A stretch of DNA of 64,000 bases, taken from assembly GCA_030040965.1 (NCBI GenBank), contig JASHOT010000280.1:9420-73419 (forward strand), written 5' to 3'. The stretch's first letter is position 1; each line of letters opens with the position of its first letter. The notes under the pieces are model-generated. The model did not search any database and was not told the origin of the DNA. It saw only the letters and a list, made by a program, of their open reading frames with translations. Of this stretch, positions 1,577 to 43,555 are shown piece by piece. The position numbers and the translations under genes were made by a program. This stretch comes from Candidatus Sulfotelmatobacter sp. (GTDB taxonomy: Bacteria > Acidobacteriota > Terriglobia > Terriglobales > Acidobacteriaceae).

Positions 1577-1592
1577 TGTGATTGGGATCACA
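1577..1592. promoter_or_regulatory. perfect palindrome TGTGATTGGGATCACA (TGTGA-N6-TCACA / TGT-N10-ACA class), 85 nt upstream of the rSAM start codon
   Basis: Read directly from the sequence. Belongs to a family with 8 members in this window. Confidence 0.5.
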
Positions 1593-1883
1593 GGGATGGG
1601 TGACGAGAAGGAACTGGCTTCAAAGTGGCAAGGTTTCGAAGTTTCAAAGGGAAACGGAGGCATGCCGAAAAGCCTTGAAACCTTGAAACTTTGAATCGTT
1701 GAAGCCTTAAACACAAATGCCCGGGTCTGGGGGTGAGCACCTAGACCCGGGCTGGCTGTTCCTCTGTTGGCAATGGAGGGGAACCGGCAACCCGAGCGTG
1801 CCGGCGAGCAGATCACTCACCCTCATTTATGCCGCGCCCTCCTCTTTGGGGAGTACGCGGAGTCCTCTGGGAACAGCGATGCC

Positions 1884-1973
1884 TTAGCGAGTCGCCCAGG
1901 ACAGATTGGGTATCATCACAAATAGAGCCACCGCGATCATAGCGATGGCGATTGCCAGCTTCACAATCTTCAT
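1884..1973 (-). CDS. 29-aa hydrophobic small protein (MKIVKLAIAIAMIAVALFVMIPNLSWATR)
   Basis: ATG preceded by GAAAGGAAAC 6 nt upstream, the same SD flavour as two confident genes here. GC-rich third positions and a single TM-like helix. Below the ORF-track size cutoff. Confidence 0.35.
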   Translation of the reverse strand: MKIVKLAIAIAMIAVALFVMIPNLSWATR

Positions 1974-2104
1974 GAGTGCGTTTCCTTTCAAACCTGCCGT
2001 CTCGGCCTCGCTGCGCGGAAGCTATGGAATCTCGCAGACGGTTACCGAGACTCGATAAGAATTTATTAACGTCTTGCAGTTTCTACGTTCCGAGCCGAAT
2101 GGTC

Positions 2105-2120
2105 AGTGATTACAATCACG
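2105..2120. promoter_or_regulatory. imperfect palindrome AGTGATTACAATCACG (GTGAT-N4-ATCAC core), ~190 bp upstream of the hemA sigma54-like promoter
   Basis: Read directly. Shares TACAATCACG with the site at 3829-3844. Confidence 0.4.
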
Positions 2121-2299
2121 CCCGGAAGTGATCGTGATATCTGGCTAAGTTATTGGGAAAACGGCAGATAGCGTCAAAAAACTCTCGTCCCGCGTGATAT
2201 ACCGCAGTCCTTTCCGGGTTGGGTTGGCACGCGATTTCTGTGCCAGCCTGTAACTCACTGAAATGGCACATGCTACTGTCCATCCGGAATTTCACCGGT

Positions 2300-2316
2300 T
2301 TGGAGACGGGCGTGCG
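2300..2316 (+). promoter_or_regulatory. sigma-54-type -24/-12 promoter candidate TTGG-AGACGGG-CGTGCG upstream of hemA
   Basis: GG-N10-GC spacing is exact. Same TTGG-N7-CGTGC motif as three other sites. The GC lies 54 nt before the hemA ATG at 2369. Confidence 0.5.
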
Positions 2317-2368
2317 ATTTAGAAGGGTGCAACCTGCGTCTGAGGTGTCATCTTTGGAACCCACTCTC

Positions 2369-3721: not shown

Positions 3722-3770
3722 CTCATTCCATTCGTGATTGGCGCTTTTCATAATTCCTCATACCAGCGCC

Positions 3771-3803
3771 AAAGGGCTTCCCCAGAAGGGAAGCCCTTTT
3801 TCT
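3771..3803 (+). terminator. rho-independent terminator after hemA
   Basis: AAAGGGCTTCCC-loop-GGGAAGCCCTTT hairpin followed by TTTTCTT. Confidence 0.7.
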
Positions 3804-3828
3804 TGGGATTCGAACGTCGCATTGTGTT

Positions 3829-3844
3829 TGGTGAGTACAATCAC
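3829..3844. promoter_or_regulatory. weak palindrome family member TGGTGAGTACAATCAC(G)
   Basis: GTGAG-TACA-ATCAC. Shares TACAATCACG with the 2105-2120 site. Lies 273 nt upstream of the lipoprotein gene. Confidence 0.3.
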
Positions 3845-4116
3845 GTTTCAGACGCTACTGGACTGTGCGAGAGGTTTGACAATTATCGACAAAATTCATA
3901 ATCGGTTTACAAAAATCGGACTACGATAAAGCTGCTGCAGGTTGTGTCGGATTGACTAGCTGCTAATGGAACGAAGGGGAGTGGGCCGATCATCGCTTCA
4001 AGCGATTGCTCCAAGCGAAATTGCTTCAAGCGATGGGTTCAGCGCAACTAGTCCGACCTCATGGTTGGACACGACAATTCACGGTTTCGTAATCGGCCGC
4101 TTGCTCGGAGGAAGTT

Positions 4117-5754: not shown

Positions 5755-5789
5755 ATTCAGGCAGAGGTTCGGCGGAGGACGGAGGAATT

Positions 5790-7397
5790 ATGAGTTCCCT
5801 ACGATTTGTCCCGCGTATGTTTTCGTCCGAAAAGTTTGTTCTTACGCTGCTGGTCACTGTTTGGTCTGGACTAACCACTAACTGCGGCTCGGGTGGAAGC
5901 ACATCGAAAACTGCACCTTTATCTGGAAGCACGCAGGTGATGGTCGTGCTGACGAGCACGGCCAACGATCAGTTGTCGGAATTCGACCTCGGTTTTCAAA
6001 GCCTCGCGTTGACGAGCCAGTCGGGCAAAACGGTTACTCTGCAATCATTGCCTACCTCAGGACCGCCGTTGGACGCCGAGTTCATGCACCTGAACGGTAT
6101 GGCTCAGCCACTGCTGAGCGTGACGGTTCCGCAGGACATCTATACAAGCGCAACGGTCACGCTGGGCGGGGGTGCCTTTGTGTGCATCGCCCTTGGTCAG
6201 ATCGATGGGGAACAGACCCTAAGCTCGGCCTATTACACCCTCTACCCACCCACGGCGACCGTGAACTTCCCATCGCCTCTTACTGTGACGGGTACGAATA
6301 TGGCTCTGTCGCTGGACCTGTTAGTATCGCAGTCCGCCACAATAGGCGACTGCGTGAACGTCGACGGATTCACTGGTTTTTCGATGGCACCGACCTTCAG
6401 TCTTACACCGTTCACTTTGGCCGCCTCACCGACGAATTCGGCGAATGGCAAAGTGTTGGGGATCGATGGAGAGATCACAGCGGTCGGTTCCAGCGGCACC
6501 AGCTTAACGTTGTCGCTGCCCAACTACGTGCCTTCGGTGACAGGGCTGCCAGTTTCTGTTCAGTCCAACAGCAACACCGTGTATCAGGGAATTAGCGGCT
6601 TTTCCGCGCTGGCAGCAGGCACGTTCGTCAATATGGATGGTGCGATCCAGTCCGATGGTTCTCTCGTGGCGACGCGGATTGCGGTGGAAGATCCTTCTGC
6701 CGTAGATGTATTCCGCGGTCCGCTGATGCAGGTGGCAGCTTCGGTGCCTTCATTCTTCATGCATGCTCGCGAGATGCAGGGCGCTGGCATGCCCGGGTTC
6801 GGAAGCGGCGAAAATATGGCGTTCTACTACAGCGGTTCAGCTTTTCAGATCTCCCAACAGCTATCGAATCTGGGCAATCTGCCGTTTGTACCAAGTTTCA
6901 ACGCTTCAAACATGGTGCCCGGACAGGAGATATATGTCTCTGCACCCTCCATCCCGGAAGGCGGCGGCTATCTCACGGGGAGCACAGTCACGCTCATGCC
7001 ACAAACAGTTGATGGCACGGTCGCCGCGTCCTCAAGCGCCGGCAACTTTACGATTTACACAATCTCGCTTGCGTCCTATGACCTGTTTCCTATGCTGGCG
7101 GTGCAGCCCGGGCAAACCACGGTTGAGAATGATCCGAGCCAAATCGAGGTTTATGTCGACAGCAATACGCAAATGATCAACACGCAGTCGCTTTCTTCGG
7201 GAGGCACGTTCCGCTTCTATGGGCTGGTTTTCAACGATAACGGCACGCTGCGCATGGATTGCGCGGAGGTGAATGACGGCGTGGCTTTCACCGCTCCGTC
7301 GAGTTCAGGAGGTCAGAAAGTCGGGACCATCCAGATAGAACGCCGGCCGGGCGCGACCGGCGTGCAGCAGGTGGTAACCACTGTGACCACTCACTGA
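5790..7397 (+). CDS. secreted lipoprotein, paralog of 4117-5754
   Basis: Lipobox LTTNC followed by GSGGS. Colinear similarity with the upstream gene. Near-identical C-terminal ~90 aa (TFRFYGLVFNDNGTLRMDCA.VNDGVAF). Confidence 0.8.
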   Translation: MSSLRFVPRMFSSEKFVLTLLVTVWSGLTTNCGSGGSTSKTAPLSGSTQVMVVLTSTANDQLSEFDLGFQSLALTSQSGKTVTLQSLPTSGPPLDAEFMHLNGMAQPLLSVTVPQDIYTSATVTLGGGAFVCIALGQIDGEQTLSSAYYTLYPPTATVNFPSPLTVTGTNMALSLDLLVSQSATIGDCVNVDGFTGFSMAPTFSLTPFTLAASPTNSANGKVLGIDGEITAVGSSGTSLTLSLPNYVPSVTGLPVSVQSNSNTVYQGISGFSALAAGTFVNMDGAIQSDGSLVATRIAVEDPSAVDVFRGPLMQVAASVPSFFMHAREMQGAGMPGFGSGENMAFYYSGSAFQISQQLSNLGNLPFVPSFNASNMVPGQEIYVSAPSIPEGGGYLTGSTVTLMPQTVDGTVAASSSAGNFTIYTISLASYDLFPMLAVQPGQTTVENDPSQIEVYVDSNTQMINTQSLSSGGTFRFYGLVFNDNGTLRMDCAEVNDGVAFTAPSSSGGQKVGTIQIERRPGATGVQQVVTTVTTH

Positions 7398-8878
7398 GTG
7401 GATGAATTTTCGGAAGGAACTGGTTCCGAGTTCTCCTCTTCGCCCGCGGGGACGAGTTCAAACTTTTTCAGTTTGTAGCGCAGTGCGTCGCGGCTGATGT
7501 CGAGCAGACGCGCGGCGTGAGTTTGATTGCCCCTCGCCTGTCGCATGGCCAGTTCGACCATGGCGCGCTCAACCTCTTCGAGCGAGGTTCCTTCCTCCGG
7601 GATGTAAAGCCGCGGCAGCACGCGTCCGTTGGAAAGTTGTTTGCCCCCTCCGTCGGCGGAAGCGCTGCTGTGCTCAAAGGCGGTCAAGCCGCTGCGGCCC
7701 GATTCGCCCACCGCAAACGGAAGATACACCGGGCGCAGAATCGATTCTTCTTCCAGAATCATGGCGCGCTCAATCGAGTTCTTCAGCTCACGGACATTCC
7801 CTGGCCAGTTGTGCGCCAGCAGCAGCCGCCGTGTCTCGGGGCTGATGCCGCGAATCGACTTCTTGAACTTGCGGTTGTACCAGGTAACAAAGAAATCGAC
7901 GAGCGGGAGAATGTCTTCCGGCCGCTCGCGCAGCGGCGGAATGAAGATGGCGATAATCGCGAGCCTGTAATAAAGATCCTGGCGGAAGTGGCCTTCACGC
8001 ACGGCTTTTTCCAGGTCGCGATTTGACGCGGCCACCACGCGCACATCCACCTGCAGATCCCGCACTCCACCGACCCGCCGGATCACCTGATCCTCGAGCA
8101 CACGCAGCAACTTCGCCTGTAACAGCGGCGAAAGCTCACCAATCTCGTCGAGGAACAGTGTGCCGCCATGCGCGGTTTCGAACAGGCCTTTCTTCATGGC
8201 CTTGGCGTCGGTGAATGCGCCTTTCTCGTGGCCAAAAAGTTCGGCCTCCATCAGCGTTTCAGGAATCGCCGAGCAGTTGATGGCTACGAACGGGCCGTTC
8301 TGTCGCGAGCTGTCGTAGTGGATATTTTTCGCGATAAGGTCTTTGCCGGTGCCGCTCTCCCCCTGAATCAGAATCGTGGTTGCCTCGCTGGCCGCCACCT
8401 TCTGCACGAAGCTCATCAGTTCGATCGTTTTCGGCGCGACGGCAACTACATCGTGATAACCCGTGCTGCGCCGGACCTCGCCCCGCAGCGACTGCACTTC
8501 CGTGCGCAGCCGGCTGGCTTCAAGCGCGTTCTGGATGGTGACGTGAAGTTCCTCGAAGTCGAGCGGCTTGCCGACAAAATCGTAGGCGCCGAGTTTTAGC
8601 GCGGTTTTGACGTCATCCAGCTGCGGATCGGCGGTGATCATGATGACCGCTGGGGCGTCAGGATTCTTCTTGACCTGCTCGAGCACCTGAATGCCGTTGA
8701 TGTCGGGCATGCGCACATCGAGCAGAATGAGGTCGGGCGATTCGCTTTGGGCGAGCCGAAGACCGGGCTCACCCGAAGGCGCCTCGACAATCTGGTATCC
8801 CCATTCCTCACACTTCTGCCGCAGGGACCAGCGCACCAGGCGCTCGTCATCGACAATCAGGATTTTCTCCGCAGCCAT
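7391..8878 (-). CDS. sigma-54-dependent response regulator (NtrC-family enhancer-binding protein)
   Basis: Receiver domain (ILIVDDE..., LILLDVRMPD). AAA+ sigma54-interaction domain (GESGTGK, GAFTDA). C-terminal Fis-type HTH (GNQTHAARLLDISRDALRYKLKKF). Confidence 0.9.
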   Translation of the reverse strand: MAAEKILIVDDERLVRWSLRQKCEEWGYQIVEAPSGEPGLRLAQSESPDLILLDVRMPDINGIQVLEQVKKNPDAPAVIMITADPQLDDVKTALKLGAYDFVGKPLDFEELHVTIQNALEASRLRTEVQSLRGEVRRSTGYHDVVAVAPKTIELMSFVQKVAASEATTILIQGESGTGKDLIAKNIHYDSSRQNGPFVAINCSAIPETLMEAELFGHEKGAFTDAKAMKKGLFETAHGGTLFLDEIGELSPLLQAKLLRVLEDQVIRRVGGVRDLQVDVRVVAASNRDLEKAVREGHFRQDLYYRLAIIAIFIPPLRERPEDILPLVDFFVTWYNRKFKKSIRGISPETRRLLLAHNWPGNVRELKNSIERAMILEEESILRPVYLPFAVGESGRSGLTAFEHSSASADGGGKQLSNGRVLPRLYIPEEGTSLEEVERAMVELAMRQARGNQTHAARLLDISRDALRYKLKKFELVPAGEEENSEPVPSENSSTQ

Positions 8879-13226: not shown

Positions 13227-13243
13227 TGCACGTGCCCCGCCAA
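13227..13243 (-). promoter_or_regulatory. sigma-54-type promoter candidate TTGG-CGGGGCA-CGTGCA upstream of resB-ccsA-HK-EBP
   Basis: Exact GG-N10-GC spacing on the minus strand. The GC lies 43 nt before the resB ATG. Motif shared with 2300, 31963 and 32915. Confidence 0.55.
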
Positions 13244-13351
13244 CTCGGGCTGAATCATTAACATCCGCTGAATCAATGTCTTGAAGATTGTTTCTGCAAG
13301 GAAGAGCGAGTTGGAATGAGCCAATACACTCATTCCCGCCGGAATTCATGT

Positions 13352-13420
13352 TGTGATTTCACCCACTGCAAGTCCTGTGATTTCAATCACAAATCCGGGA
13401 ATGAGCTGTGTTATTTCACC
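13352..13420. promoter_or_regulatory. operator/UAS array: perfect 16-mer TGTGATTTCAATCACA (13376-13391) flanked by two half-site-like copies (TGTGATTTCAC at 13352, TGTGTTATTTCAC at 13407)
   Basis: Read directly. Located in the divergent resB / cytochrome operon control region. The same 16-mer occurs at 33140 and as its reverse complement at 28099. Confidence 0.6.
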
Positions 13421-13592
13421 AGTTCGATTGCGGGAGAAGGCCCATTCGTACTACGCCACTGGGTACTGTGGAAATCGGCATCAGTCGGTGATGAGTTTCT
13501 CATCTGCTTTGTTTGCAGTTATTTGCGGAAATTCCACAGACTGAGGGATTTGGCCACAGGTAAGGGCACGCGCATGCACATGCAGAAGTGGC

Positions 13593-15116
13593 ATGTTCCG
13601 CGAGATCTCAAATCGCAGCCTTCCCAAAGTAACCGGCGAAAGCGCCCTCCCCCGATTTCTGAAACTCGCGGCTGTTCTGTTCCTTGCGGTCACGCCGGCG
13701 CTGGCCAAGACACATCCGGTGCCCCTCGATAAGAATGTCGACTCCGCCAAGTGCGTGGAATGCCATGAAGACAGGACCAAAGGCAAGGCGGTCCACTCCG
13801 CCATTGCCATGGGATGTCTGAGCTGCCACGAAGTGCGCGTGACCCGCGACGTAACTCGGGTCAAGCTGAAGACCACGACGACCCAAGCCCTTTGTCTGAG
13901 CTGCCATGATGATAAGAAAGTCCAGGCGGGGCAGACGATGCATCCGCCGGCGGTTCGCGATTGCATCAAGTGCCATGATCCGCACGAGTCCGATAATCCC
14001 AACCAGCTGCTGAGGGCGATTTCCGGTACAACGCGGGACGACAATCTTTGCCTGTCATGCCACAACGTTGGGGTGAACGTGCCGAAAGATGGCAGCCGGC
14101 ACGCCGCGCTCGATATGGGATGCGACAGCTGCCACGTCACCCACAAGAACGGCGAGCGGGGAAAGATCGAGTTTGAAGCGCACTTAAAGAAAGCAGTTCC
14201 CGACCTGTGCGTCGATTGCCACGACGTAAAAGATGCCGCCCTGCAGAAGACGCATGCCGGACAGCCCTTCGATAAGGCGAACTGCCTGCAATGCCACAAT
14301 CCACACGAGTCGGCGAAGCCCAAGTTGATGCAGACTTTCCTGCACAACCCCTTCGAAAACAAGATGTGCGACACCTGCCATCAGCCGGCGAAGGACGGCA
14401 AGGTGGTTCTGACCAGCTCCGACAGCAAGGCGCTGTGCGTGACCTGCCACGACGATCAGGCAAAGAAAATCGACACGGCAAAGGTGCAGCATCCAGGCGC
14501 GCAGGGTGATTGCGTGACCTGCCACAACCCGCACGCGGGAAAGTCGCCGGGCTTCCTGCAGCCCGATCCGGTGCAGGCGTGCCTGGCCTGCCACAGCGAC
14601 CAAGCCGATCAGATGAAGAAGGCGCACCTGCATCAGCCGGCGTTCCAGCAGGGATGCGCGACCTGTCACGAGCCGCATGGTGGGGAAAATGACCACCTGC
14701 TGCGGGCGGCCAATGTCAACAAGCTCTGTCTCGAGTGCCACGGGCCGGATGCGAATCCGCAGAAGGTCGAGAGCGAGCATCTGGTCACGATCTTCAACGG
14801 CGGCGTGAAGCTCCCGGAGGACTACTTCCGCAAAGTGATCCAGCTGCCCATTCAATACGGCCATGGTCACCCGGTCGATCGGCATCCGGTCTCCGACATC
14901 ATGGATCCGAAAGACCAGAGCAAAGTTCTAAAGCCCATCAACTGCCTGACCTGCCATCAGCCGCACTCGGGAGCGAATGCGGGAATGCTGGCGAAGGATC
15001 AGCCAAACAACATGGCGTTCTGCATGACCTGTCATGCCGACCTGAATTCAGGTGGGCAGCCGGCGCAGAACGCGCAGCCGACAGCACCGAAGGCGCAAGG
15101 CGGGACCACAAAATGA
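13593..15116 (+). CDS. 16-haem c-type cytochrome (periplasmic, c7/c3-like repeats)
   Basis: 16 CXXCH motifs counted in 507 aa, many as CxxCH.PH. N-terminal hydrophobic signal segment LKLAAVLFLAVTPALA. Confidence 0.9.
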   Translation: MFREISNRSLPKVTGESALPRFLKLAAVLFLAVTPALAKTHPVPLDKNVDSAKCVECHEDRTKGKAVHSAIAMGCLSCHEVRVTRDVTRVKLKTTTTQALCLSCHDDKKVQAGQTMHPPAVRDCIKCHDPHESDNPNQLLRAISGTTRDDNLCLSCHNVGVNVPKDGSRHAALDMGCDSCHVTHKNGERGKIEFEAHLKKAVPDLCVDCHDVKDAALQKTHAGQPFDKANCLQCHNPHESAKPKLMQTFLHNPFENKMCDTCHQPAKDGKVVLTSSDSKALCVTCHDDQAKKIDTAKVQHPGAQGDCVTCHNPHAGKSPGFLQPDPVQACLACHSDQADQMKKAHLHQPAFQQGCATCHEPHGGENDHLLRAANVNKLCLECHGPDANPQKVESEHLVTIFNGGVKLPEDYFRKVIQLPIQYGHGHPVDRHPVSDIMDPKDQSKVLKPINCLTCHQPHSGANAGMLAKDQPNNMAFCMTCHADLNSGGQPAQNAQPTAPKAQGGTTK

Positions 15117-16372
15117 CATCCAGAAATCGCAAACAAGTTGGAATGGCGGCGATGCTGGGCGTACTGCTCTCGTTAGGCCTGGCCGCTCCGCTCCATGCCG
15201 ACAAGAAAAAGAAAGACGACCCGAACGCGGCGGCAAAGAAGACGGTGCTCGAGGAAATCGACTATTCGAAGCTGGTGTGGCCCAATCCACCGGCTCCGAC
15301 GCGGGTGAAGTATCTGAATTATTTCTGCTGCGACAAGTACGTGGCCGCCGCGCCCAAGCAGAAGTCTTCGTGGATGGATCGCATGGCCGGCGCCGACAGC
15401 GCGCAGCAGAAGCAGCTGGATAAGCCGCTGTTCGCGCTGTGGACGCCGTACGGCATCGCGGTCGACTCGAAGGGAACGGTCTACGCCGCCGACGGCAAGG
15501 TGGGCGCGATCTTCATGTTCAACACCGAGACCAAGGAGCTGACGATGATCAAGAACGGGGTGCAGGCGCACTTCGGCGACATCATCGGGCTGGCCATCGA
15601 CGATGCCGACCGGCTCTTCGTCTCCGACACCAAGTTTCACCGCATTCTGGTGCTCGATAAGGACCACAAGGTGGAAGGCGCGATCAGCGAGGGAAATCTG
15701 GTCGATCCGGCCGGAATGGCCATCGACAACGAAAACCGCTTCCTCTACGTGGCCGATGCCGGACGCGACCAGGTCATGGTTTACGACGCCGACAAGCTCA
15801 ACCTGCTGCGCACCATCGGCACGGCCGGCAAGAAGCACACGCTGACCGAAGCCGGGCAGTTCTCGGCGCCGACCAACGTGGCGCTCGACGCCGACAACAA
15901 CCTGTACGTCACCGACATGTTCAATAACCGCGTCGAGGTCTTCGACGCCGACGGGAACTTCATCCGGGCATGGGGAAAATCGGGCGACCGGCCGGGATAC
16001 TTCACTCGGCCGAAGGGAATCGCCATTGACGCTGACGGTCACGTCTGGGTTGCCGACGGCCAGCTCGACATACTGCAGGTTTACACGCAGGACGGGCAAT
16101 TTCTGATGTGGATGGGCGGGCACGGCTTGTTCCCAGGACAGTTCCGGGCGCTGGCCGGGCTCTATATCGACAAGAACAACCGGATTTTCACCTCCGAGCA
16201 GTATCCCGGGCGGGTGCAGATGTTCCGCTACTTCACCGATGACGAGGCGAGGGCGCAGATCAAGCAACGCCAGGCGGAGGTTGACAAGAAGAGATCGGAG
16301 GGGCCTAAAGCGGCAGCCGCGGACACTGCGGCCACTTCGTCCCCTGCGAGTTCTGCGGCAAAACCGCAATAG
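15113..16372 (+). CDS. NHL-repeat six-bladed beta-propeller protein (secreted)
   Basis: ATGA overlap with the upstream stop. Signal peptide MAAMLGVLLSLGLAAPLHA. Repeated blades such as LYVTDMFNNRVEVFD and VWVADGQLDILQVY. The track ORF start at 14735 is a spurious 5' extension. Confidence 0.85.
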   Translation: MTSRNRKQVGMAAMLGVLLSLGLAAPLHADKKKKDDPNAAAKKTVLEEIDYSKLVWPNPPAPTRVKYLNYFCCDKYVAAAPKQKSSWMDRMAGADSAQQKQLDKPLFALWTPYGIAVDSKGTVYAADGKVGAIFMFNTETKELTMIKNGVQAHFGDIIGLAIDDADRLFVSDTKFHRILVLDKDHKVEGAISEGNLVDPAGMAIDNENRFLYVADAGRDQVMVYDADKLNLLRTIGTAGKKHTLTEAGQFSAPTNVALDADNNLYVTDMFNNRVEVFDADGNFIRAWGKSGDRPGYFTRPKGIAIDADGHVWVADGQLDILQVYTQDGQFLMWMGGHGLFPGQFRALAGLYIDKNNRIFTSEQYPGRVQMFRYFTDDEARAQIKQRQAEVDKKRSEGPKAAAADTAATSSPASSAAKPQ

Positions 16373-16401
16373 GGTTTGGCTGTTCCGCGGATAGCCAAAC
16401 C
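16373..16401 (+). other. intra-operon stem-loop GGTTTGGCT-N11-AGCCAAACC with no U-tract
   Basis: 9-bp perfect stem immediately after the NHL gene stop, in the only sizeable gap (122 nt) of the operon. Confidence 0.3.
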
Positions 16402-16494
16402 GGGGCTGGTGCAAGCCGGCTCCGGGCTGCAAGCGCAGTAATAGAAGTAGCGGTGGAAGTAACAGCTGTTACAAAACAGGAGGTTTCATACGGT

Positions 16495-17517
16495 ATGAAA
16501 AAGCTACTCTTTGTAATGTTCGTGGTTATGCTCGCGGTCGGAATGGCTGCGGCGCAAAGTTACACAGCTGGCGGCGGCACGGGATTGTACGGTATTGATA
16601 TCCTGGGCGCCCACCAGAATGGCGGACGTGGTTGCGCTGGCTGCCATGCTCCGCACAGCGGCGCAGCGGGCGGCGGCGGCAACGCGGCCACCAACGCGGC
16701 TGCATTCAACGATCCTCTCTCCGGCAGCGCGGCGCTGTTCGGACAAGATGTAACTCCTCTGTTGGGATACACCATCACCCTGGGGAACGGCTATGTTGAG
16801 ACGCTGCCTGGCGAAGCGACCGCTTACACCACGCAGACCGCCGAACTGGAAGGCATCACCATGTGCCTGGCTTGCCATGACGGCGTGGTTGCGAAGGGCC
16901 AGATGATGAACGGCCAATCGTGGGAGCAGAGAATGGGTCTGCTGCCTTCGACCGTGTACGGAACCCGTCCCATCCCGACGCTGCTCGGCAACGATAGCGG
17001 CGACGGCAACACCAGCGGATACGGCAACGATCACCCGGTGGGCGTGCAGGCCACTTTGGCTGCCGTGGGTGCGTGGAGCAACAACGCCACGACCAGCCCG
17101 TTGACCATCACGATCAACGCCAACGGCGCGATCAGCAACATCGTTCCCAACAACGCTGCGTATGTGGCGTTCAATGCCAACTACGGCTATCCGGCCATCG
17201 CCGGCAGCCGCTGGGGTTGGGGCGTTTCTGTTCCCGCTGGAGCAACCAGTGGCGGACAGGCGTTCCTGACCTGCACCACCTGCCACAACCAGCATGCGAT
17301 GTATGTCTACACTGCCCCGGCCGGCAAGCAGACCGGCGCTTCGATCGCGGGCGGCGGATATTATCCGACGTACTTCTTCATCAACTCGCCCTATAACCCG
17401 GGCGCGGGCAACACCAACCCGAACGTGGCGGTTTCGACGACGCAGTTCTGCCGTCAGTGCCACGTGACGGAGTCAAACGAGTACGCCGGCATCACCACGG
17501 TCACCACGCAGTACTAA
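16495..17517 (+). CDS. tetrahaem c-type cytochrome, Gly/Ala/Thr/Asn-rich and loop-dominated (340 aa)
   Basis: 4 CXXCH motifs (CAGCH, CLACH, CTTCH, CRQCH). AGGAGG lies 11 nt before the ATG at 16495. Signal peptide MKKLLFVMFVVMLAVGMAAAQ. Confidence 0.85.
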   Translation: MKKLLFVMFVVMLAVGMAAAQSYTAGGGTGLYGIDILGAHQNGGRGCAGCHAPHSGAAGGGGNAATNAAAFNDPLSGSAALFGQDVTPLLGYTITLGNGYVETLPGEATAYTTQTAELEGITMCLACHDGVVAKGQMMNGQSWEQRMGLLPSTVYGTRPIPTLLGNDSGDGNTSGYGNDHPVGVQATLAAVGAWSNNATTSPLTITINANGAISNIVPNNAAYVAFNANYGYPAIAGSRWGWGVSVPAGATSGGQAFLTCTTCHNQHAMYVYTAPAGKQTGASIAGGGYYPTYFFINSPYNPGAGNTNPNVAVSTTQFCRQCHVTESNEYAGITTVTTQY

Positions 17518-17583
17518 CCGTTGAAATGGGGGAGGGAGATGGTCTCTCCCCCGTTTTTCCAGAGCTCGATTGAAGGAATCGCA

Positions 17584-18672: not shown

Positions 18673-18761
18673 AGCGGGCAGCCAATGGCGCATGGAGATT
18701 GATGTGGAAGTTGCGCCAGGGCATGGGGGAAGAAATCAGGTGGGGCATGCCGCGGGAATGG

Positions 18762-27797: not shown

Positions 27798-28098
27798 GTT
27801 ATTTCCCCTTTCGGACGACGCGGTACGATCCTGAAAGCCGCGGTATGTCACTGGCGGCGCCGGCCGCGATCGAAACGGGCGATATAGCGGCGACTGCAAG
27901 CAGGAGATTGAAAGTGCGCGTCTTTCTCAAGTTCAAAGCACCCCAGTTCATAGGCGGCCGTCCTTTGAGGTTCGTTCTATTCCCAGGGGAGTTTCATTCC
28001 GGGGAAGTCGTAGAACCCGTGCAGAGATATCGAACCCGTCTTTTATCCCAAAGTAGGGTGCTCGGGCAAACTGTGCAGCCATTCATGTCACAGGCGGA

Positions 28099-28114
28099 TG
28101 TGATTGAAATCACA
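28099..28114. promoter_or_regulatory. perfect palindrome TGTGATTGAAATCACA (reverse complement of the 13376 and 33140 16-mers)
   Basis: Read directly. Lies between the divergent giant NHL gene and the membrane-protein gene, 107 nt before 28221. Confidence 0.55.
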
Positions 28115-31962: not shown

Positions 31963-31979
31963 TGCACGCGGTCTTCCAA
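31963..31979 (-). promoter_or_regulatory. sigma-54-type promoter candidate TTGG-AAGACCG-CGTGCA
   Basis: Exact GG-N10-GC spacing on the minus strand. The GC lies 26 nt before the ATG at 31938. Confidence 0.5.
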
Positions 31980-32090: not shown

Positions 32091-32106
32091 AGTGAGCGAT
32101 TTCACG
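32091..32106. promoter_or_regulatory. imperfect palindrome AGTGAGCGATTTCACG (GTGA-N6-TCAC)
   Basis: Read directly. Lies ~120 bp upstream of the 31963-31979 promoter candidate. Confidence 0.35.
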
Positions 32107-32914: not shown

Positions 32915-32931
32915 TGCACGCCGAGTGCCAA
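32915..32931 (-). promoter_or_regulatory. sigma-54-type promoter candidate TTGGCAC-TCGG-CGTGCA (best -24 match in the window)
   Basis: TGGCAC is a perfect -24 element. GG-N10-GC spacing is exact. The GC lies 33 nt before the TPR gene ATG at 32883. Confidence 0.6.
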
Positions 32932-33139
32932 ACTGAGTCAGTACTGAGTTGGGAAAAACCCATTGTTTATAGCTATTTGGAGCCAAGTGCGTACCTCGGG
33001 CTGCCGCGCTTGATCCCCGCGCGAATTAGAGACCATTGGCGCGGGGCATATGACCCAGGCAGCATTCCCTCCAACTGCCTCGTTTTTGCAAAACTAAGCA
33101 AGTGCGAAACAGCTGCCGAGTGCCAGACGCACCTTTCGA

Positions 33140-33155
33140 TGTGATTTCAATCACA
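33140..33155. promoter_or_regulatory. perfect palindrome TGTGATTTCAATCACA between the divergent TPR genes
   Basis: Identical to the 13376-13391 16-mer. 66 nt before the 33221 ATG and ~218 bp upstream of the 32915 promoter candidate. Confidence 0.6.
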
Positions 33156-33220
33156 ACCTCGCGACCAGCGATCAGGGCACAATCCCTGCAAACGTAGGGG
33201 ATTTCAACGAGGAGAATCAT

Positions 33221-33922
33221 ATGACGGATATAAAGGGTTCTGAGTCCGGGAAATGGACCAGCACACAGGCCTATGCGCTGTCGGTAATCTGCCTGCTGGT
33301 GGGCGTAGCAGTCGGGTATCTCGTGCGCGGCTCGGCTCCATCGCAAACCGAGGCGGCGAACGTTCCACAATCACGGTCGAACGGCATGGCAGCACCCGGA
33401 GCAGCACGTTCCAATGGCGCAGTTCAACAACCGACGCCGGAACAGTTGCGGCAGATGGCCGACTCGCAGGCCGCGCCGCTGCTGGCTCAACTCAAGAACG
33501 AGCCCAACAATGCAGAATTATTTTATAAGATCGGGAATTTATATTACGACGCACAACAATATCCCGACGCGGTGAAGTATTACCAGGAATCGTTGAAGAT
33601 CGATCCCAAGGCCACAGACGTTCGCACAGATCTTGGCACTGCATATCACTTGATGGGCCAGCCCGATCAGGCAATCCAGGAATACGACCAGGTGTTGAAG
33701 ATCAATGGCAAGCATGCCAACGCTCTGTTCAACGAAGGCATGGTGAAGTGGCAGGACAAGATGGACATCAACGGGGCCGTTGCCTCGTGGAAGCGGCTGC
33801 TCGAAACTAATCCCAACTATCCGCAGCGGGACCGGGTTGAGCATTTGATTGCGCAGGCGCAACAACACTTGACGATGAGCCCGGGAACGAAAACTGATAA
33901 GCCGGCGGCGATTGCGCAATAA
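33221..33922 (+). CDS. membrane-anchored TPR protein, paralog of 32218-32883
   Basis: Same architecture as its paralog. TM segment YALSVICLLVGVAVGYLV. C-terminal ...AVASWKRLLETNPNYP...PGTKTDKPAAIAQ. Confidence 0.7.
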   Translation: MTDIKGSESGKWTSTQAYALSVICLLVGVAVGYLVRGSAPSQTEAANVPQSRSNGMAAPGAARSNGAVQQPTPEQLRQMADSQAAPLLAQLKNEPNNAELFYKIGNLYYDAQQYPDAVKYYQESLKIDPKATDVRTDLGTAYHLMGQPDQAIQEYDQVLKINGKHANALFNEGMVKWQDKMDINGAVASWKRLLETNPNYPQRDRVEHLIAQAQQHLTMSPGTKTDKPAAIAQ

Positions 33923-40843: not shown

Positions 40844-40998
40844 CAAGGATTTACCATCCCGAAGCAGCTCTCGTTGCGACGGTGACATGTATTGCCTCGG
40901 TCGCGGTTAGCCTTATAATGAGCGACGCGTGCCCGGGGCTGAGCACTCCGCAGTCGCGCTACGTTTTGCACCCAACGATCGCCTATGAGTCTGGGCTT

Positions 40999-42198
40999 AT
41001 GAGCCAAACTCTGCGAGCTGTATCCGCCGACCTTGAGGACGTTGCCGCCGCCGTGCCGGAAGTCTCGGTCGTGCTGCCCTGCCTGAATGAACGCGAGACG
41101 GTCGGCATTTGCGTGGCCAAGGCTGTTACCGCACTGCGCGACGCGGGGATTCAAGGCGAAGTCATTGTCGCCGATAACGGATCGACCGACGGCTCCGTGG
41201 AGCTTGCGCAGGCTGCCGGCGCCAGAGTGGTTCCTGTCGCGCAGCGTGGATATGGAAATGCGTTGCGGGGCGGGATTCAGGCTGCATGCGGCACTTATGT
41301 TCTGATGGCGGACTCCGATGACAGCTATGATTTCGGACATATTCCGCGGTTTGTGGAACAGCTGAGAAATGGCTCCGAGCTTGTGATGGGCAACCGCTTT
41401 CGCGGCGGCATTCAGAAGGGAGCCATGCCTCTTCTGCACCGCTATCTGGGGAATCCCGTGCTGACCGCGGTCGGACGCCTTTTCTTTGGCTCGCCTTCGC
41501 GTGATTTTCACTGCGGCATTCGCGCCTTCCGGAAAGACAGCTACGAGCGCATGGGCATTCGCTCGACCGGTATGGAGTTCGCCAGCGAGATCGTCGTCAA
41601 GGCCAGCTTGTTACAGATGAAGGTGAGTGAAGTTCCAACCACTCTTTCGCCCGATGGCCGTAGCCACCCGCCGCATTTGCGCACCTGGCACGATGGATGG
41701 CGCCATTTGCGCTTTCTCCTGATGTACAGTCCGCGATGGCTGTTTTTGTATCCCGGCATCACATCCATCTTGGTCGGGCTCGCGGCCTGTGTTTGGCTCA
41801 TGCCCGGGCCGCGCCGGGTCGGCAGCATCGTTTTCGATGTCCACACGCTCGACTACGGTTTCGCATCAATTCTCGTGGGATTTCAGCTGCTGGCTTTCGC
41901 CGTGTTCACAAAAGTCTTCGCCATTACCGAAGGACTTCTGCCCGAGGATCCACGGCTGAACCGCTGGTTCAAACACGTCACGCTGGAAACGGGGCTGGTT
42001 ATCGGCGCATTGTTCGTGATCCTCGGACTTTCCGGTTCCATCTTCGCGCTCTCCAGTTGGGCGCGGACCAGCTTCGGTCCGATTACTTCCGAAAATATTC
42101 TTCGCATCGTCATGCTTTCGGTTTTTTCGTTGACTCTCGGGCCGCAAATTATCTTCAGCAGCTTCTTTCTCAGTATTCTCGGCTTGCGCCGCCGTTGA
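40999..42198 (+). CDS. family-2 glycosyltransferase with C-terminal TM helices (polyprenyl-phosphate sugar synthase-like)
   Basis: VSVVLPCLNE, ADNGSTDGS and a DSDDSY (DxD) motif. Four C-terminal hydrophobic helices. Start set at MSQTLRAV. Confidence 0.8.
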   Translation: MSQTLRAVSADLEDVAAAVPEVSVVLPCLNERETVGICVAKAVTALRDAGIQGEVIVADNGSTDGSVELAQAAGARVVPVAQRGYGNALRGGIQAACGTYVLMADSDDSYDFGHIPRFVEQLRNGSELVMGNRFRGGIQKGAMPLLHRYLGNPVLTAVGRLFFGSPSRDFHCGIRAFRKDSYERMGIRSTGMEFASEIVVKASLLQMKVSEVPTTLSPDGRSHPPHLRTWHDGWRHLRFLLMYSPRWLFLYPGITSILVGLAACVWLMPGPRRVGSIVFDVHTLDYGFASILVGFQLLAFAVFTKVFAITEGLLPEDPRLNRWFKHVTLETGLVIGALFVILGLSGSIFALSSWARTSFGPITSENILRIVMLSVFSLTLGPQIIFSSFFLSILGLRRR

Positions 42199-42200
42199 CC

Positions 42201-42896
42201 ATGTCCCCAGCCGAATTCGATTCCTTCGCGAAAAGTTACGAACAGGACCTGGCCAAATCGCTGGCAGTCACCGGCGAGACGCGCGAATTCTACGCGCAAC
42301 AGCGAATCGATTGGACGGCGGAGTGTTTATCCCGACTGAAACATCGCGTGCGGCGAATTCTGGATTATGGCTGCGGCGATGGCGCGAACGTGCCCATGCT
42401 CGCTTCAAAGTTCGAGGCAGAGCAGGTCATCGGAGTGGATGTTTCCAGCGCTTCGATCGCTGTAGCCCGGCAGTCCCACGCCTCGCCGGCATGTTCTTTT
42501 TTTTGCCTCGAGGAATTTGCGCCGAAGGGCGAGCTGGATCTCGTGTTCACGAATGGAGTTTTCCATCACATTCCCCTAAGCGAGCGGCGCGCTTGCCTGC
42601 TGGCGATTCGGCAATCTTTGCGGCCGGGAGCGGTTTTCGCATTCTGGGAAAATAATCCGTGGAATCCGGGCACTCGCTATGTCATGTCGCAATGCGCTTT
42701 TGATGAAAACGCAATTACCATTAACCCACCGAAGGCGCGCAGAATTCTCTCGGAAGCCGGGTTCAAAATTGTGAGAACAGATTCACTTTTCTATTTCCCT
42801 CGCCAACTCGGTTTTCTGCGTCCGATGGAGCGCTGGCTTCGAGGGTTACCTTTGGGAGGGCAATACCTGGTACTGTGCCAGAATTCTCCAGAGTAA
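42201..42896 (+). CDS. class I SAM-dependent methyltransferase
   Basis: ILDYGCGDG motif I. The ATG is 3 nt after the GT2 stop. The track ORF start at 41697 is an out-of-gene extension overlapping the GT2. Confidence 0.8.
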   Translation: MSPAEFDSFAKSYEQDLAKSLAVTGETREFYAQQRIDWTAECLSRLKHRVRRILDYGCGDGANVPMLASKFEAEQVIGVDVSSASIAVARQSHASPACSFFCLEEFAPKGELDLVFTNGVFHHIPLSERRACLLAIRQSLRPGAVFAFWENNPWNPGTRYVMSQCAFDENAITINPPKARRILSEAGFKIVRTDSLFYFPRQLGFLRPMERWLRGLPLGGQYLVLCQNSPE

Positions 42897-42913
42897 GTGC
42901 GGGGGTGAAGAGG

Positions 42914-43514
42914 CTATGGTTTGACAGGCTGCGCGCTACAGCTCGTCGTTGCTTGACTCATCGCGTACTGGCAACGCCAGCGGAAGCCATTGGGATCGTG
43001 CAGACCGTAACCCCACACGCGAAAGAAGAGCATGCCGCCTTCGACTTGTGAAGCCTCGACAAAAACGTGATCGTTTGCGCGCAGATGTTCTCGCAATTCG
43101 ACGGGAAGTTGTCCAATCAGCTGCGATTTATCGAGAAGAATCGCTAAGGCGGCGTGATCGCGCGAAAAAACCAGTGTCCGCGATGTTCTCTTGCCGACAT
43201 ACTGCGTAACTAATAAGAACTCGTTTTCGCTCCACGCCACGGCTGCCTCGCCCATGTAATCGCACAACTTCCGCGAATGATGAGTTGTCAGGTCGATAAG
43301 CCAGAGAGAGTGAAATGTCCCGACAAAATCGGAGTCGGATGCTTCGCGGTCGGAGCTCCGGACAGCAAATCGGCGATCCGGAGCAATCAGTTCGCCCGCC
43401 TTTGCCAAATACGACAAATTGCGCAATGACCGGCGCTGCGTTTTGAAGCACGGCCACAGCAAGCAGTGCAAGCTTGAGGCACGAAGGGCGCATGCTGAGA
43501 TGCATGATTCCCAT
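42914..43514 (-). pseudogene. secreted protein of unknown function, apparently frameshifted near its signal peptide
   Basis: The signal peptide MRPSCLKLALLAVAVLQNAAPVIAQ is in one frame (43514 downward). The 185-aa body is in the +1 frame (42914-43471). The join is around 43400-43440. Confidence 0.45.
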
Positions 43515-43539
43515 TTCAGCCGATGCGCCCCAAATTGGT

Positions 43540-43555
43540 TGTGACTTGCCTCACA
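43540..43555. promoter_or_regulatory. perfect TGTGA-N6-TCACA palindrome TGTGACTTGCCTCACA
   Basis: Read directly. Lies 26 nt upstream of the 43514 start. Confidence 0.45.

What the first reader, a model, noticed from the sequence alone, without database searches (positions are those of the whole stretch)
1577..43555. Recurrent 16-bp palindrome TGTGAT-N4-ATCACA: three identical copies plus five variants, all intergenic
Seen in the sequence:
- TGTGATTTCAATCACA at 13376 and 33140.
- Its reverse complement TGTGATTGAAATCACA at 28099.
- TGTGATTGGGATCACA at 1577.
- TGTGACTTGCCTCACA at 43540.
- Weaker variants: AGTGATTACAATCACG at 2105, GGTGAGTACAATCACG at 3829 and AGTGAGCGATTTCACG at 32091.
- The flanks differ, so this is not a repeat element.
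- The copies at 2105, 13376, 32091 and 33140 lie 120-220 bp upstream of the four sigma-54-like promoters.

Established knowledge: the motif fits both the CRP-family consensus TGTGA-N6-TCACA and the NifA-type enhancer TGT-N10-ACA.

Inference: these are either the upstream activating sequences of the locally encoded sigma-54 activator or operators of a CRP/FNR-family redox regulator. The genes served are haem synthesis, cytochrome maturation, the cytochrome operon, the rSAM enzyme and the TPR chaperone-like proteins. That set points to a respiratory/redox regulon.
Basis: partly seen in the sequence, partly recalled or inferred. Interest (0 to 1): 0.7.

Follow-up and report, generated by a model that had tools for sequence, protein, structure and literature searches.

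The report
Binding sites of an FNR-like regulator
The repeated 16-base palindrome is real and is most likely the docking site of a CRP/FNR-type gene regulator that soil and peat Acidobacteria use to switch on haem-, cytochrome- and anaerobic-metabolism genes; this is a familiar kind of switch, newly seen in a poorly studied phylum.

Summary
TGTGAT-N4-ATCACA occurs four times exactly, and five times as TGTGA-N6-TCACA, against about 0 expected. All copies lie in the 9.6% of the window that is non-coding.

The window comes from a Terriglobia (Acidobacteriota) genome. In 160 related loci (2.5 Mb) I found 148 boxes with at most one mismatch, at the same promoters as in the window.

About two thirds of the boxes lie 21-22 nt upstream of a conserved -10-like hexamer. 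That places the box centre near -41.5. A second box often lies exactly 22 bp further upstream. These promoters have no -24/-12 element.

In a sister clade a 240-aa CRP/FNR-family protein is encoded next to the rSAM/hemA genes. It carries tandem boxes in its own promoter. Its recognition helix, SRETVTR, aligns with E. coli CRP's SRETVGR. It lacks CRP's cAMP-binding residues and has an invariant N-terminal CxxC-x8-C motif.

The genuine sigma-54 promoters (hemA, resB, cytA, TPR) carry a different palindrome, GnGnnATATnnCnC. Only box 13376 sits inside such an enhancer.

The regulator gene of the window's own clade was not found. I rate this a new member of a known kind, of moderate interest.

The parts
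1577..1592 (.). Perfect box TGTGATTGGGATCACA; proximal (about -41.5) site of the promoter of the rSAM/SPASM gene (382-1497, minus strand)
   Evidence: a box lies 72-99 bp before the rSAM start in 13 of 14 close-group species (164 bp in L031). It is followed by GCCTTTT and, 21 nt on, by a conserved TAnnCT. No GG-N10-GC element is present.
1550..1555 (-). -10-like hexamer TACTCT of the rSAM promoter
   Evidence: it lies 21 nt from the box edge and is conserved as TAACCT, TACTCT or TAATCT.
382..1497 (-). Target gene: radical SAM/SPASM protein (TIGR04053 family, related to haem b synthase AhbD)
   Evidence: Pfam. TIGR04053 scores 470.6 bits against a cut-off of 395; AhbD scores 309 bits, below its cut-off.
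2105..2120 (.). Box variant AGTGATTACAATCACG; class-II-like site for the promoter that diverges from hemA and drives a 29-aa ORF (a small cytochrome c in other genomes)
   Evidence: conserved as GTGAT-N4-(A/G)TCAC in 23 close-group species. The flank running away from hemA has GAAACT at 21 nt (AGAAACTGCA conserved).
2078..2083 (-). -10-like hexamer GAAACT of the divergent promoter
1884..1973 (-). 29-aa hydrophobic ORF (MKIVKLAIAIAMIAVALFVMIPNLSWATR), the likely target of box 2105
   Evidence: Read from the sequence. Called as a 29-aa gene in L001 and L008. In L002 and L005 a 110-aa cytochrome c occupies this place.
13376..13391 (.). Perfect box TGTGATTTCAATCACA in the resB|cytA intergenic region, between two divergent sigma-54 promoters; its role there is unresolved
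   Evidence: conserved about 179 bp before the ResB start in close-group species, mostly as the exact 16-mer. No -10-like hexamer lies at 21-22 nt on either side.
13352..13367 (.). Weaker box TGTGATTTCACCCACT, 24 bp from the main box (contains the GGTGAAATCACA element)
28099..28114 (.). Perfect box TGTGATTGAAATCACA; distal (about -63.5) member of a tandem pair in the promoter of the 1185-aa NHL-repeat protein (24342-27899, minus strand)
   Evidence: a box is conserved here in 6 metagenome loci. A proximal half-box TGTGAC lies at a 22-bp offset, followed after 21 nt by a conserved TACTTT (28050-28055 on the minus strand).
33140..33155 (.). Perfect box TGTGATTTCAATCACA; class-II-like site for the TPR(+)/GDSL operon (33221 onward)
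   Evidence: conserved in about 35 metagenome loci, mostly as the exact 16-mer, 59-89 bp before the TPR start. It is followed at 21-22 nt by GACAAT, GAGAAT or CACAAT.
33178..33183 (+). -10-like hexamer CACAAT of the TPR(+) promoter
   Evidence: The overlapping sigma-54-like reading at 33175-33190 is not conserved.
43540..43555 (.). Box TGTGACTTGCCTCACA, 69 bp before a 185-aa ORF of unknown function (42914-43471, minus strand)
   Evidence: TGAAAT lies 21 nt from the box edge (43513-43518). Conservation was not tested.
3830..3845 (.). Weak variant GGTGAGTACAATCACG between hemA and the DUF5666 genes; assignment uncertain
   Evidence: A GG-N10-GC element lies at 3982-3997. Conservation was not tested.
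32091..32106 (.). Weak variant AGTGAGCGATTTCACG (reverse complement CGTGAAATCGCTCACT), about 147 bp upstream of a sigma-54-like promoter; resembles the second motif more than the box
13227..13242 (-). Sigma-54 promoter of the resB-ccsA-HK-EBP operon (TGGCGGGGCACGTGCA)
   Evidence: GG-N10-GC is kept in 54 of 56 species (typically TGGCGCGGAACGTGCA), with an IHF-like site upstream.
13563..13578 (+). Sigma-54-like promoter of the multihaem cytochrome/NHL operon (AGGGCACGCGCATGCA)
   Evidence: conserved as AAGGCGAnnnTCGTGCA.
2300..2316 (+). Sigma-54 promoter of hemA (TTGGAGACGGGCGTGCG)
   Evidence: TTTGGCAnnnnnnTTGC or GTGC in all clades.
32915..32930 (-). Sigma-54 promoter of TPR(-) (TGGCACTCGGCGTGCA)
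   Evidence: TGGCAY-N5-CGTGCW, flagged in 20 of the 22 sequences shown (window included).
2192..2206 (+). Second motif (GnG-nn-ATAT-nn-CnC), hemA copy GCGTGATATACCGCA; candidate enhancer site of the local sigma-54 activator, and not part of the box family
   Evidence: G.G..ATAT.CC.CA is nearly invariant in 36 species, 150-193 bp (mostly about 170 bp) before the hemA ATG.
13317..13332 (-). Second motif, resB copy TGAGTGTATTGGCTCA
33041..33056 (-). Second motif, TPR(-) copy GGGTCATATGCCCCGC
7391..8878 (-). NtrC-family response regulator (sigma-54 activator), last gene of the resB operon; not the protein that best explains the box

Best explanation
The palindrome TGTGAT-N4-ATCACA is the operator of a dimeric CRP/FNR-superfamily transcription factor that is conserved in Terriglobia (Acidobacteriota).

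The factor reads the TGTGA half-site with a CRP-type recognition helix (S-R-E-T-V-T-R). At most targets it binds with its centre about 41.5 bp upstream of the transcription start of a sigma-70-type promoter that has a -10 element but no usable -35. A second dimer often binds exactly 22 bp further upstream. From there it most likely recruits RNA polymerase, which is class II/III activation (inferred).

Targets in the window:
- an AhbD-like radical SAM/SPASM gene
- a small ORF divergent from hemA
- a large NHL-repeat protein
- a TPR/GDSL operon
- a 185-aa ORF

Targets in relatives:
- a small cytochrome c
- 2-oxoacid:ferredoxin oxidoreductase genes
- the regulator's own gene

One box lies in the enhancer shared by the sigma-54 promoters of resB-ccsA-HK-EBP and the multihaem cytochrome operon. 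There it probably modulates activation that depends on the sigma-54 activator (speculative).

The factor lacks CRP's cAMP-binding residues and has invariant cysteines, including an N-terminal CxxC-x8-C. Its signal is therefore more likely oxygen or redox state than cAMP (inferred).
For: **Shown**
1. Non-randomness and placement. The window has 5 boxes against 0.02 expected, all intergenic. The genome loci have 32 perfect and 63 one-mismatch boxes in 1.57 Mb, where my own arithmetic expects about 0.1 and 3.4. The metagenome loci have 42 and 11 in 0.97 Mb. Only 39 of 148 boxes fall inside greedy ORFs that cover 85% of the DNA.
2. Conservation at the same promoters, with the central 4 bases free to vary.
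3. Geometry. A -10-like nAnnnT hexamer starts 21 or 22 nt from the box edge in 99 of 155 boxes, against about 7% at other offsets. This is seen independently at the rSAM promoters of two paralogous rSAM genes, the regulator's own promoter, the promoter divergent from hemA, TPR(+), the NHL protein and an oxidoreductase operon. None of these has a conserved GG-N10-GC.
4. A second box lies at exactly 22 bp in 29 cases, and at almost no other distance.
5. A 240-aa protein with cNMP_binding and HTH_Crp_2 domains is encoded directly upstream of the rSAM/hemA genes in 24 or more species. It has tandem boxes 75-100 bp before its start.
6. Its best solved relative is E. coli CAP. SRETVTR aligns on SRETVGR, so R180, E181 and R185 are kept. 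The helix is SRETVTR in 141 of 145 homologues and SRETVSR in 4.

**From the literature**
R, E and R at helix positions 1, 2 and 6 go with TGTGA-N6-TCACA in CRP and in Desulfovibrio HcpR1 (PMC5701242).

**Inferred**
Activation rather than repression, and the nature of the signal.
Against: - No CRP/FNR gene lies in the window or in about 1.6 Mb of loci from the window's own clade. The link to this particular protein rests on a sister clade whose EBP is 79-83% identical.
- No transcription start sites are known, so the -41.5 position is inferred from conserved hexamers.
- The related sequences are not independent samples.
- Box 13376 does not fit the class II geometry. It sits where an enhancer for a sigma-54 activator would sit.
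- In the sister clade the element nearest resB reads TGTGATATGGCTCACA. The box and the second motif therefore overlap in sequence space.
- A box overlapping the -35 region could equally be a repressor operator.
Confidence: 0.75

Rival explanations
1. The boxes are the upstream activating sequences (enhancer sites) of the locally encoded NtrC-family sigma-54 activator (7391-8878). It would bind them as dimers and loop onto -24/-12 promoters.
For: - Box 13376 lies about 167 and about 206 bp upstream of two divergent, conserved sigma-54 promoters, with IHF-like sites between.
- Boxes 2105, 33140 and 32091 are 147-244 bp upstream of sigma-54 promoters.
- The activator is encoded in the resB operon, so it would be autoregulated.
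- TGT-N10-ACA fits the NifA-type pattern (own knowledge).
Against: - The rSAM, regulator, TPR(+), NHL and oxidoreductase promoters have boxes but no -24/-12 element. There the box is only about 30 bp from the -10 region, too close for looping.
- hemA keeps its sigma-54 promoter, IHF-like site and GCGTGATATGCCGCA element in clades with no box upstream.
- Boxes 2105 and 33140 have their own divergent sigma-70-type client promoters.
- All the sigma-54 promoters share a different palindrome, which is the better enhancer candidate.
Confidence: 0.08
2. The boxes are bound by a CRP/FNR-type (or other) factor that acts mainly as a repressor. By occupying the -35 region it would keep haem, cytochrome and anaerobic genes off until a signal releases it.
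For: The boxes span roughly -49 to -34 of the inferred promoters, which is equally compatible with blocking RNA polymerase. Autoregulatory sites are common for repressors.
Against: - The inferred promoters lack a recognisable -35 hexamer (CAGCCT at rSAM), as is typical of activator-dependent class II promoters (own knowledge).
- The strict 21-22 nt phasing to the -10 and the 22-bp tandem spacing are what activation by contact with RNA polymerase requires. A repressor would tolerate looser placement.
Confidence: 0.12
3. The copies are chance matches, or remnants of a short mobile or repeat element, with no regulatory role.
For: Three copies share an identical 16-mer.
Against: - Zero copies are expected by chance.
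- The flanks are unrelated.
- The boxes stay at orthologous promoters across more than 100 species while the spacer varies.
- They are strongly depleted from coding DNA.
Confidence: 0.01

Closest known systems
E. coli cAMP receptor protein (CRP/CAP) and its site TGTGA-N6-TCACA
   Same: - Same 16-bp core, including the preferred T and A at positions 6 and 11.
- Same recognition-helix residues R-E-x-x-x-R, aligned directly to CAP.
- Same inferred class II position near -41.5.
- CAP is the best-matching solved structure (E 4e-16).
   Different: - The cAMP-contacting residues are missing: E72 is deleted, R82 is Y and S83 is E in the alignment.
- The protein scores 84 bits against the 266-bit cut-off of the NCBIfam CRP model.
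- It has an extra N-terminal CxxC-x8-C.
- The flanks of the box are not A/T-conserved.
- The regulon covers haem, cytochromes and anaerobic enzymes, not carbon catabolism.
FNR / Anr / FnrL / FixK oxygen-responsive regulators
   Same: - Same superfamily fold.
- An N-terminal cysteine motif plus conserved internal cysteines.
- Class II promoters and autoregulation.
- Control of haem-synthesis radical SAM enzymes (hemN in proteobacteria, own knowledge), cytochromes and oxygen-sensitive oxidoreductases.
   Different: - The DNA site is TGTGA-N6-TCACA, not TTGAT-N4-ATCAA.
- The helix is R-E-T-V-T-R, not the E-x-x-S-R type.
- The cysteine spacing is CxxC-x8-C, not C-x2-C-x5-C.
- The protein scores 43.5 bits against the 228-bit cut-off of the Fnr model.
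- Fe-S binding is untested.
HcpR1 of Desulfovibrio desulfuricans (a CRP/FNR member that binds TGTGA-N6-TCACA)
   Same: It is a non-CRP member of the family with R, E and R at helix positions 1, 2 and 6. It binds a perfect TGTGA-N6-TCACA, is autoregulated, and is linked to anaerobic respiration genes (PMC5701242).
   Different: The phylum and the regulon differ (nitrosative stress and nap genes). No orthology has been shown. HcpR proteins sense NO through haem, whereas here the sensor is unknown.
Sigma-54 promoters that also depend on CRP (for example the enterobacterial prpBCDE promoter; own knowledge)
   Same: Box 13376 places a CRP-type site upstream of -24/-12 promoters that also have IHF-like sites and a probable activator enhancer.
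   Different: No function has been tested here. The box lies between two divergent sigma-54 promoters and among the putative activator sites. Its position is not kept in the sister clades.

Membership tests
Operator of a CRP/FNR-superfamily transcription factor | 16-bp inverted repeat with 5-bp half-sites separated by 6 bp (TGTGA-N6-TCACA type), enriched in non-coding DNA | tested here: met
Operator of a CRP/FNR-superfamily transcription factor | A cognate protein with a cNMP-binding-like barrel and a Crp-type HTH is encoded in the genome | tested here: inconclusive
   The protein is found in 24 or more sister-clade species next to the target genes. It is not in the window or in about 1.6 Mb of own-clade loci. 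The rest of the genome could not be fetched.
Operator of a CRP/FNR-superfamily transcription factor | The recognition helix matches the half-site (R-E-x-x-x-R for TGTGA) | tested here: met
   SRETVTR aligns to CAP's SRETVGR. It occurs in 141 of 145 homologues. The rule is taken from PMC5701242.
Operator of a CRP/FNR-superfamily transcription factor | Site centred near -41.5 (class II) or at helical-turn positions upstream of a sigma-70-type promoter | tested here: met
   The -10-like hexamer lies 21-22 nt from the box edge in 99 of 155 boxes, at seven different promoter types. True transcription starts were not available.
Operator of a CRP/FNR-superfamily transcription factor | Sites in the regulator's own promoter (autoregulation) | tested here: met
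   Tandem boxes lie before the regulator gene in 24 species.
cAMP receptor protein in the strict sense | cAMP-binding residues (E72, R82, S83 of E. coli CRP) | tested here: not met
   Alignment: E72 falls in a gap, R82 aligns with Y and S83 with E.
cAMP receptor protein in the strict sense | Reaches the NCBIfam CRP equivalog cut-off | tested here: not met
   84.1 bits against 266.
FNR ([4Fe-4S] oxygen sensor) | Four cluster-ligating cysteines (N-terminal C-x2-C-x5-C plus one internal) | tested here: inconclusive
   C13-x2-C16-x8-C25 plus C64 and C133 are invariant in 145 homologues. The spacing differs from FNR. Cluster binding cannot be tested with these tools.
FNR ([4Fe-4S] oxygen sensor) | FNR box TTGAT-N4-ATCAA with an E-x-x-S-R recognition helix; reaches the Fnr model cut-off | tested here: not met
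   The box is TGTGAT-N4-ATCACA, the helix is RETVTR, and the score is 43.5 bits against 228.
Enhancer (UAS) of an NtrC-family sigma-54 activator | Lies about 80-250 bp upstream of a -24/-12 promoter | tested here: met
   True for 13376 (two promoters), 2105, 33140 and 32091.
Enhancer (UAS) of an NtrC-family sigma-54 activator | Every site is partnered with a -24/-12 promoter | tested here: not met
   The rSAM, regulator, TPR(+), NHL and oxidoreductase promoters have boxes without GG-N10-GC.
Enhancer (UAS) of an NtrC-family sigma-54 activator | The site is retained wherever the dependent sigma-54 promoter is retained | tested here: not met
   Sister-clade hemA promoters keep the sigma-54 promoter, the IHF-like site and GCGTGATATSCCGCA, but have no box within 330 bp.

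The most novel reading that the evidence does not exclude
The regulator may be a previously undescribed sensor subtype of the CRP/FNR superfamily, combining a CRP-type DNA helix, no cAMP site and an invariant CxxC-x8-C plus two further cysteines.

Besides acting at class II promoters, it may be wired into sigma-54 enhancers. At resB|cytA its box sits among the binding sites of a two-component sigma-54 activator. Haem synthesis, cytochrome c maturation and a multihaem cytochrome/NHL operon would then need two inputs: an oxygen or redox signal through the FNR-like factor, and a second signal through the kinase and activator.
Probability: 0.3. Interest if true: 0.55.

Novelty: new member of a known kind. 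Interest (0 to 1): 0.36.

Why it matters
Terriglobia are among the most abundant bacteria in acidic soils and peat, and almost nothing is known about how they regulate genes. This work gives three things:
- a concrete operator
- a candidate regulator
- a first regulon, comprising an AhbD-like anaerobic haem enzyme, small cytochromes, ferredoxin oxidoreductases, and TPR and NHL proteins next to multihaem cytochromes

The set points to a switch to low-oxygen life. All of it can be tested with EMSA or DAP-seq. It can also be used at once to interpret peat metatranscriptomes. Finally, it separates this regulon from a neighbouring sigma-54/two-component circuit that drives hemA and cytochrome c maturation.

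Tried and rejected
- **Geobacter-like origin.** I first assumed this because of the multihaem cytochromes and sigma-54 elements. The homologues are Acidobacteriota MAGs.
- **Rfam and tRNA scans of the window.** Nothing found, so the motif is not part of a known RNA element.
- **A sigma-54 promoter at 33175-33190 for TPR(+).** Rejected: the GC of the -12 element is not conserved, whereas GAnAAT at 21-22 nt is.
- **The conserved TGGGCCTTCTCCCGCA at 13429-13444 as a sigma-54 promoter.** Rejected: the GC is not conserved.
- **Box 2105 as hemA's own regulator.** Rejected in favour of the divergent promoter.
- **The second motif as a -10 element.** Rejected: it lacks the conserved A at position 2 and is palindromic.
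- **Locating the regulator gene in the window's own clade.** Not achieved. A tblastn search of all fetched loci and the window found none. An exact look-up of the window's EBP returned only an 11.8-kb Logan contig.
- **A PDB search with the N-terminal half of the regulator.** It gave no FNR alignment that could place the cysteines.
- **Genes inserted between the kinase and the activator in some loci.** They turned out to be Lnt and glycyl-tRNA synthetase, not regulators.
- **Literature searches.** No paper was found on this motif or regulator in Acidobacteria.

Full report
**1. The observation**

The pattern TGTGATNNNNATCACA matches exactly at 1577, 13376, 28099 and 33140, where dinucleotide-preserving shuffles give none. 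The looser TGTGA-N6-TCACA adds 43540, giving 5 matches against 0.02 expected. Allowing two mismatches gives 9 against 1.76 expected.

The quoted sequences are right, except that GGTGAGTACAATCACG begins at 3830 rather than 3829. The flanks of the copies are unrelated.

I built a gene map from long ORFs and Pfam. It is 90.4% coding, and every box lies in the remaining 9.6%. Rfam and tRNA scans found nothing in the window.

**2. Where the window comes from**

The genes around the boxes are:
- a radical SAM/SPASM enzyme
- hemA
- two DUF5666 proteins
- an operon of resB, ccsA, a histidine kinase and an NtrC-type sigma-54 activator
- a divergent operon of multihaem cytochromes, NHL-repeat proteins and a PPIase
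- a 1185-aa NHL protein
- two TPR proteins, and others

The activator's closest homologues (86-92% identity) come from soil and peat metagenomes. NCBI labels several of those assemblies Candidatus Solibacter or Candidatus Sulfotelmatobacter.

A scan of one genome per species returned 80 loci, nearly all labelled as Terriglobia or Acidobacteriaceae assemblies. They form two sets: a close group (87-91% identical activator) and sister clades (79-83%). Gene order around the activator is conserved.

**3. The box is conserved at the same promoters**

The 80 genome loci (1.57 Mb) contain 32 perfect and 63 one-mismatch boxes. By my own arithmetic about 0.1 and 3.4 would be expected. They recur in two places: in the cytA|resB intergenic region about 179 bp before ResB, and 72-99 bp before the rSAM gene in the close group.

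Eighty metagenome loci anchored on the GDSL gene at 33912 (0.97 Mb) hold 42 perfect and 11 one-mismatch boxes. Nearly all lie before the TPR(+) gene, and six lie between the large NHL gene and its neighbour.

The central four bases vary between species while the two hexamers do not. TGAA/TTCA is the commonest spacer, in 26 of 140 distinct boxes, which accounts for the three identical copies. There is no flank conservation. Only 39 of 148 boxes fall inside greedily chosen ORFs that cover 85% of the DNA.

**4. Geometry points to a class II activator site at sigma-70-type promoters**

Before the rSAM gene the box is followed by GCCTTTT and, exactly 21 nt from its edge, by a conserved TAnnCT. There is no GG-N10-GC element. 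In the sister clades the gene in this position is an AhbD-like rSAM only 28-37% identical to the window's. Its promoter has the same layout, with two boxes 22 bp apart and TATnnT 21 nt after the proximal one.

The same layout appears at:
- the TPR(+) promoter, with GACAAT, GAGAAT or CACAAT at 21-22 nt
- the promoter that diverges from hemA, with GAAACT at 21 nt, which drives a 29-aa ORF here and a small cytochrome c elsewhere
- the large NHL gene, where 28099 is the distal box of a tandem pair followed by TACTTT
- probably the 185-aa ORF at 43471

Over all 155 boxes, a hexamer of the form nAnnnT starts 21 or 22 nt from the box edge in 99 cases, against about 7% at other offsets. When a second box is present it lies exactly 22 bp away in 29 cases, and at almost no other distance. 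These sequences are related, so the counts are not independent. The pattern does, however, recur at seven different promoter types.

**5. A matching regulator**

In the sister clades a 240-aa gene lies directly upstream of the rSAM and hemA genes. Pfam finds cNMP_binding, HTH_Crp_2 and Crp domains in it. It is present at 80-94% identity in 24 or more loci.

In one 4.7-Mb contig it diverges from a pyruvate:ferredoxin oxidoreductase gene. A nearby 2-oxoacid:ferredoxin oxidoreductase operon also has tandem boxes, with CATAAT at 22 nt.

Its own promoter carries tandem boxes 22 bp apart, followed at 21 nt by GACACT or GAAACT.

Its best solved relative is E. coli CAP. In that alignment SRETVTR lies on CAP's SRETVGR, so R180, E181 and R185 are kept. 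CAP's E72, R82 and S83, which hold cAMP, are a gap, Y and E. The helix is SRETVTR in 141 of 145 homologues.

A published rule links R, E and R at helix positions 1, 2 and 6 with TGTGA-N6-TCACA in CRP and in Desulfovibrio HcpR1 (PMC5701242).

The protein is well below the NCBIfam cut-offs for CRP, Fnr, FnrL, FixK and NtcA. Cysteines C13, C16, C25, C64 and C133 are invariant. The N-terminal CxxC-x8-C recalls FNR's cluster motif but has a different spacing. Whether it binds an Fe-S cluster is inference only.

**6. The sigma-54 circuit is real but uses another motif**

The following sigma-54 promoters are conserved:
- resB: GG-N10-GC kept in 54 of 56 species, typically TGGCGCGGAACGTGCA
- cytA: AAGGCGAnnnTCGTGCA
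- hemA: TTTGGCAnnnnnnTTGC in all clades
- TPR(-): TGGCAY-N5-CGTGCW

Each has an IHF-like site and, about 100-130 bp upstream, a palindrome of the form GnG-nn-ATAT-nn-CnC. At hemA this reads GCGTGATATGCCGCA, is nearly invariant in 36 species, and lies 150-193 bp (mostly about 170 bp) from the ATG. In several species its GTG is GCC or GCG, which a CRP-type helix should not accept. I therefore take it as a separate motif and as the likelier enhancer of the local activator (inference).

Sister-clade hemA promoters keep all of these elements but have no box.

Box 13376 is the exception. It has no -10-like hexamer at the right distance. It lies between GGTGAAAT-type elements, about 167 and about 206 bp from the two sigma-54 starts. 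In the sister clade the perfect box there is missing, and the element nearer resB reads TGTGATATGGCTCACA. Its role as co-activator, gate or repressor of activator-dependent transcription is open.

**7. Likely biology**

The window's rSAM protein belongs to TIGR04053 and is related to haem b synthase AhbD. The sister-clade rSAM scores 488 bits on the AhbD model, just under its cut-off of 500. The other targets are ferredoxin oxidoreductases, small cytochromes, and proteins next to multihaem cytochromes.

Together the targets resemble the low-oxygen regulons of FNR, Anr and FnrL, which control hemN and cytochrome genes in proteobacteria (own knowledge). I infer an oxygen- or redox-responsive activator. 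The sign of regulation and the signal are not shown.

**8. Limits**

- The regulator gene of the window's own clade was not found. The tools could not reach other contigs of that genome.
- No transcription starts or binding data exist.
- I found no paper describing this motif or regulator in Acidobacteria. That search covers open-access literature only.

**9. Verdict**

The CRP/FNR reading is supported and the sigma-54 enhancer reading is not, except possibly at 13376. This is a new member of a well-known kind of system. Its interest is moderate, because it gives a first testable regulon for an abundant but little-studied phylum.

Noticed in passing
window 2192-2206, 13317-13332 (minus strand), 33041-33056 (minus strand); L009-L088 hemA upstream regions: A second conserved palindrome, GnG-nn-ATAT-nn-CnC (GCGTGATATGCCGCA at hemA), lies about 100-130 bp upstream of each conserved sigma-54 promoter, with an IHF-like TTGAAAACAA between them. 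It is nearly invariant in 36 species, 150-193 bp (mostly about 170 bp) before the hemA ATG. It is probably the enhancer of the local two-component sigma-54 activator.
   Followed up: partly
window 2300-2316 (+), 13227-13242 (-), 13563-13578 (+), 32915-32930 (-), 31963-31978 (-): hemA, the resB-ccsA-kinase-activator operon, the multihaem cytochrome/NHL operon and a TPR gene all have conserved -24/-12 promoters. Haem synthesis and cytochrome c maturation therefore appear to be sigma-54-dependent in these Acidobacteria.
   Followed up: partly
window 1884-1973 (minus strand): A 29-aa hydrophobic ORF (MKIVKLAIAIAMIAVALFVMIPNLSWATR) occupies the position where related genomes encode a 110-aa cytochrome c divergent from hemA. 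It is also called as a gene in L001 and L008.
   Followed up: partly
window 1600-1890 (minus strand); tandem repeat 1673-1712: Downstream of the small ORF there are two strong hairpins (CCCGGGTCT...AGACCCGGG, and a long stem built from CCTTGAAA repeats). The fold z-score is -4.2. Similar GGTTTCAAGG repeats occur in L033. Their function is unknown; they may be terminators or a repeat element.
   Followed up: partly
window 13593-23682: An operon of three multihaem cytochromes (the first has 16 CXXCH motifs), two NHL-repeat propeller proteins, a SurA-like PPIase and a 645-aa protein with no family match. It may be an outer-membrane electron conduit. Its gene order is conserved across Terriglobia.
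   Followed up: no
window 59244 (prfB, 59338-60279): The release factor 2 gene shows the classic programmed +1 frameshift site CTT TGA C, preceded by GGGAG. This is a known feature.
   Followed up: partly
L089 9688-10000 and 3379-3679: In a 4.7-Mb Terriglobia contig the CRP/FNR gene diverges from a pyruvate:ferredoxin oxidoreductase gene. A 2-oxoacid:ferredoxin oxidoreductase operon also carries tandem boxes, which extends the regulon to oxygen-sensitive central metabolism.
   Followed up: partly
L008 1869-4312: In one close relative the activator gene is separated from resB-ccsA-kinase, with two IS110-family transposase genes nearby. This suggests a recent rearrangement of the locus.
   Followed up: no
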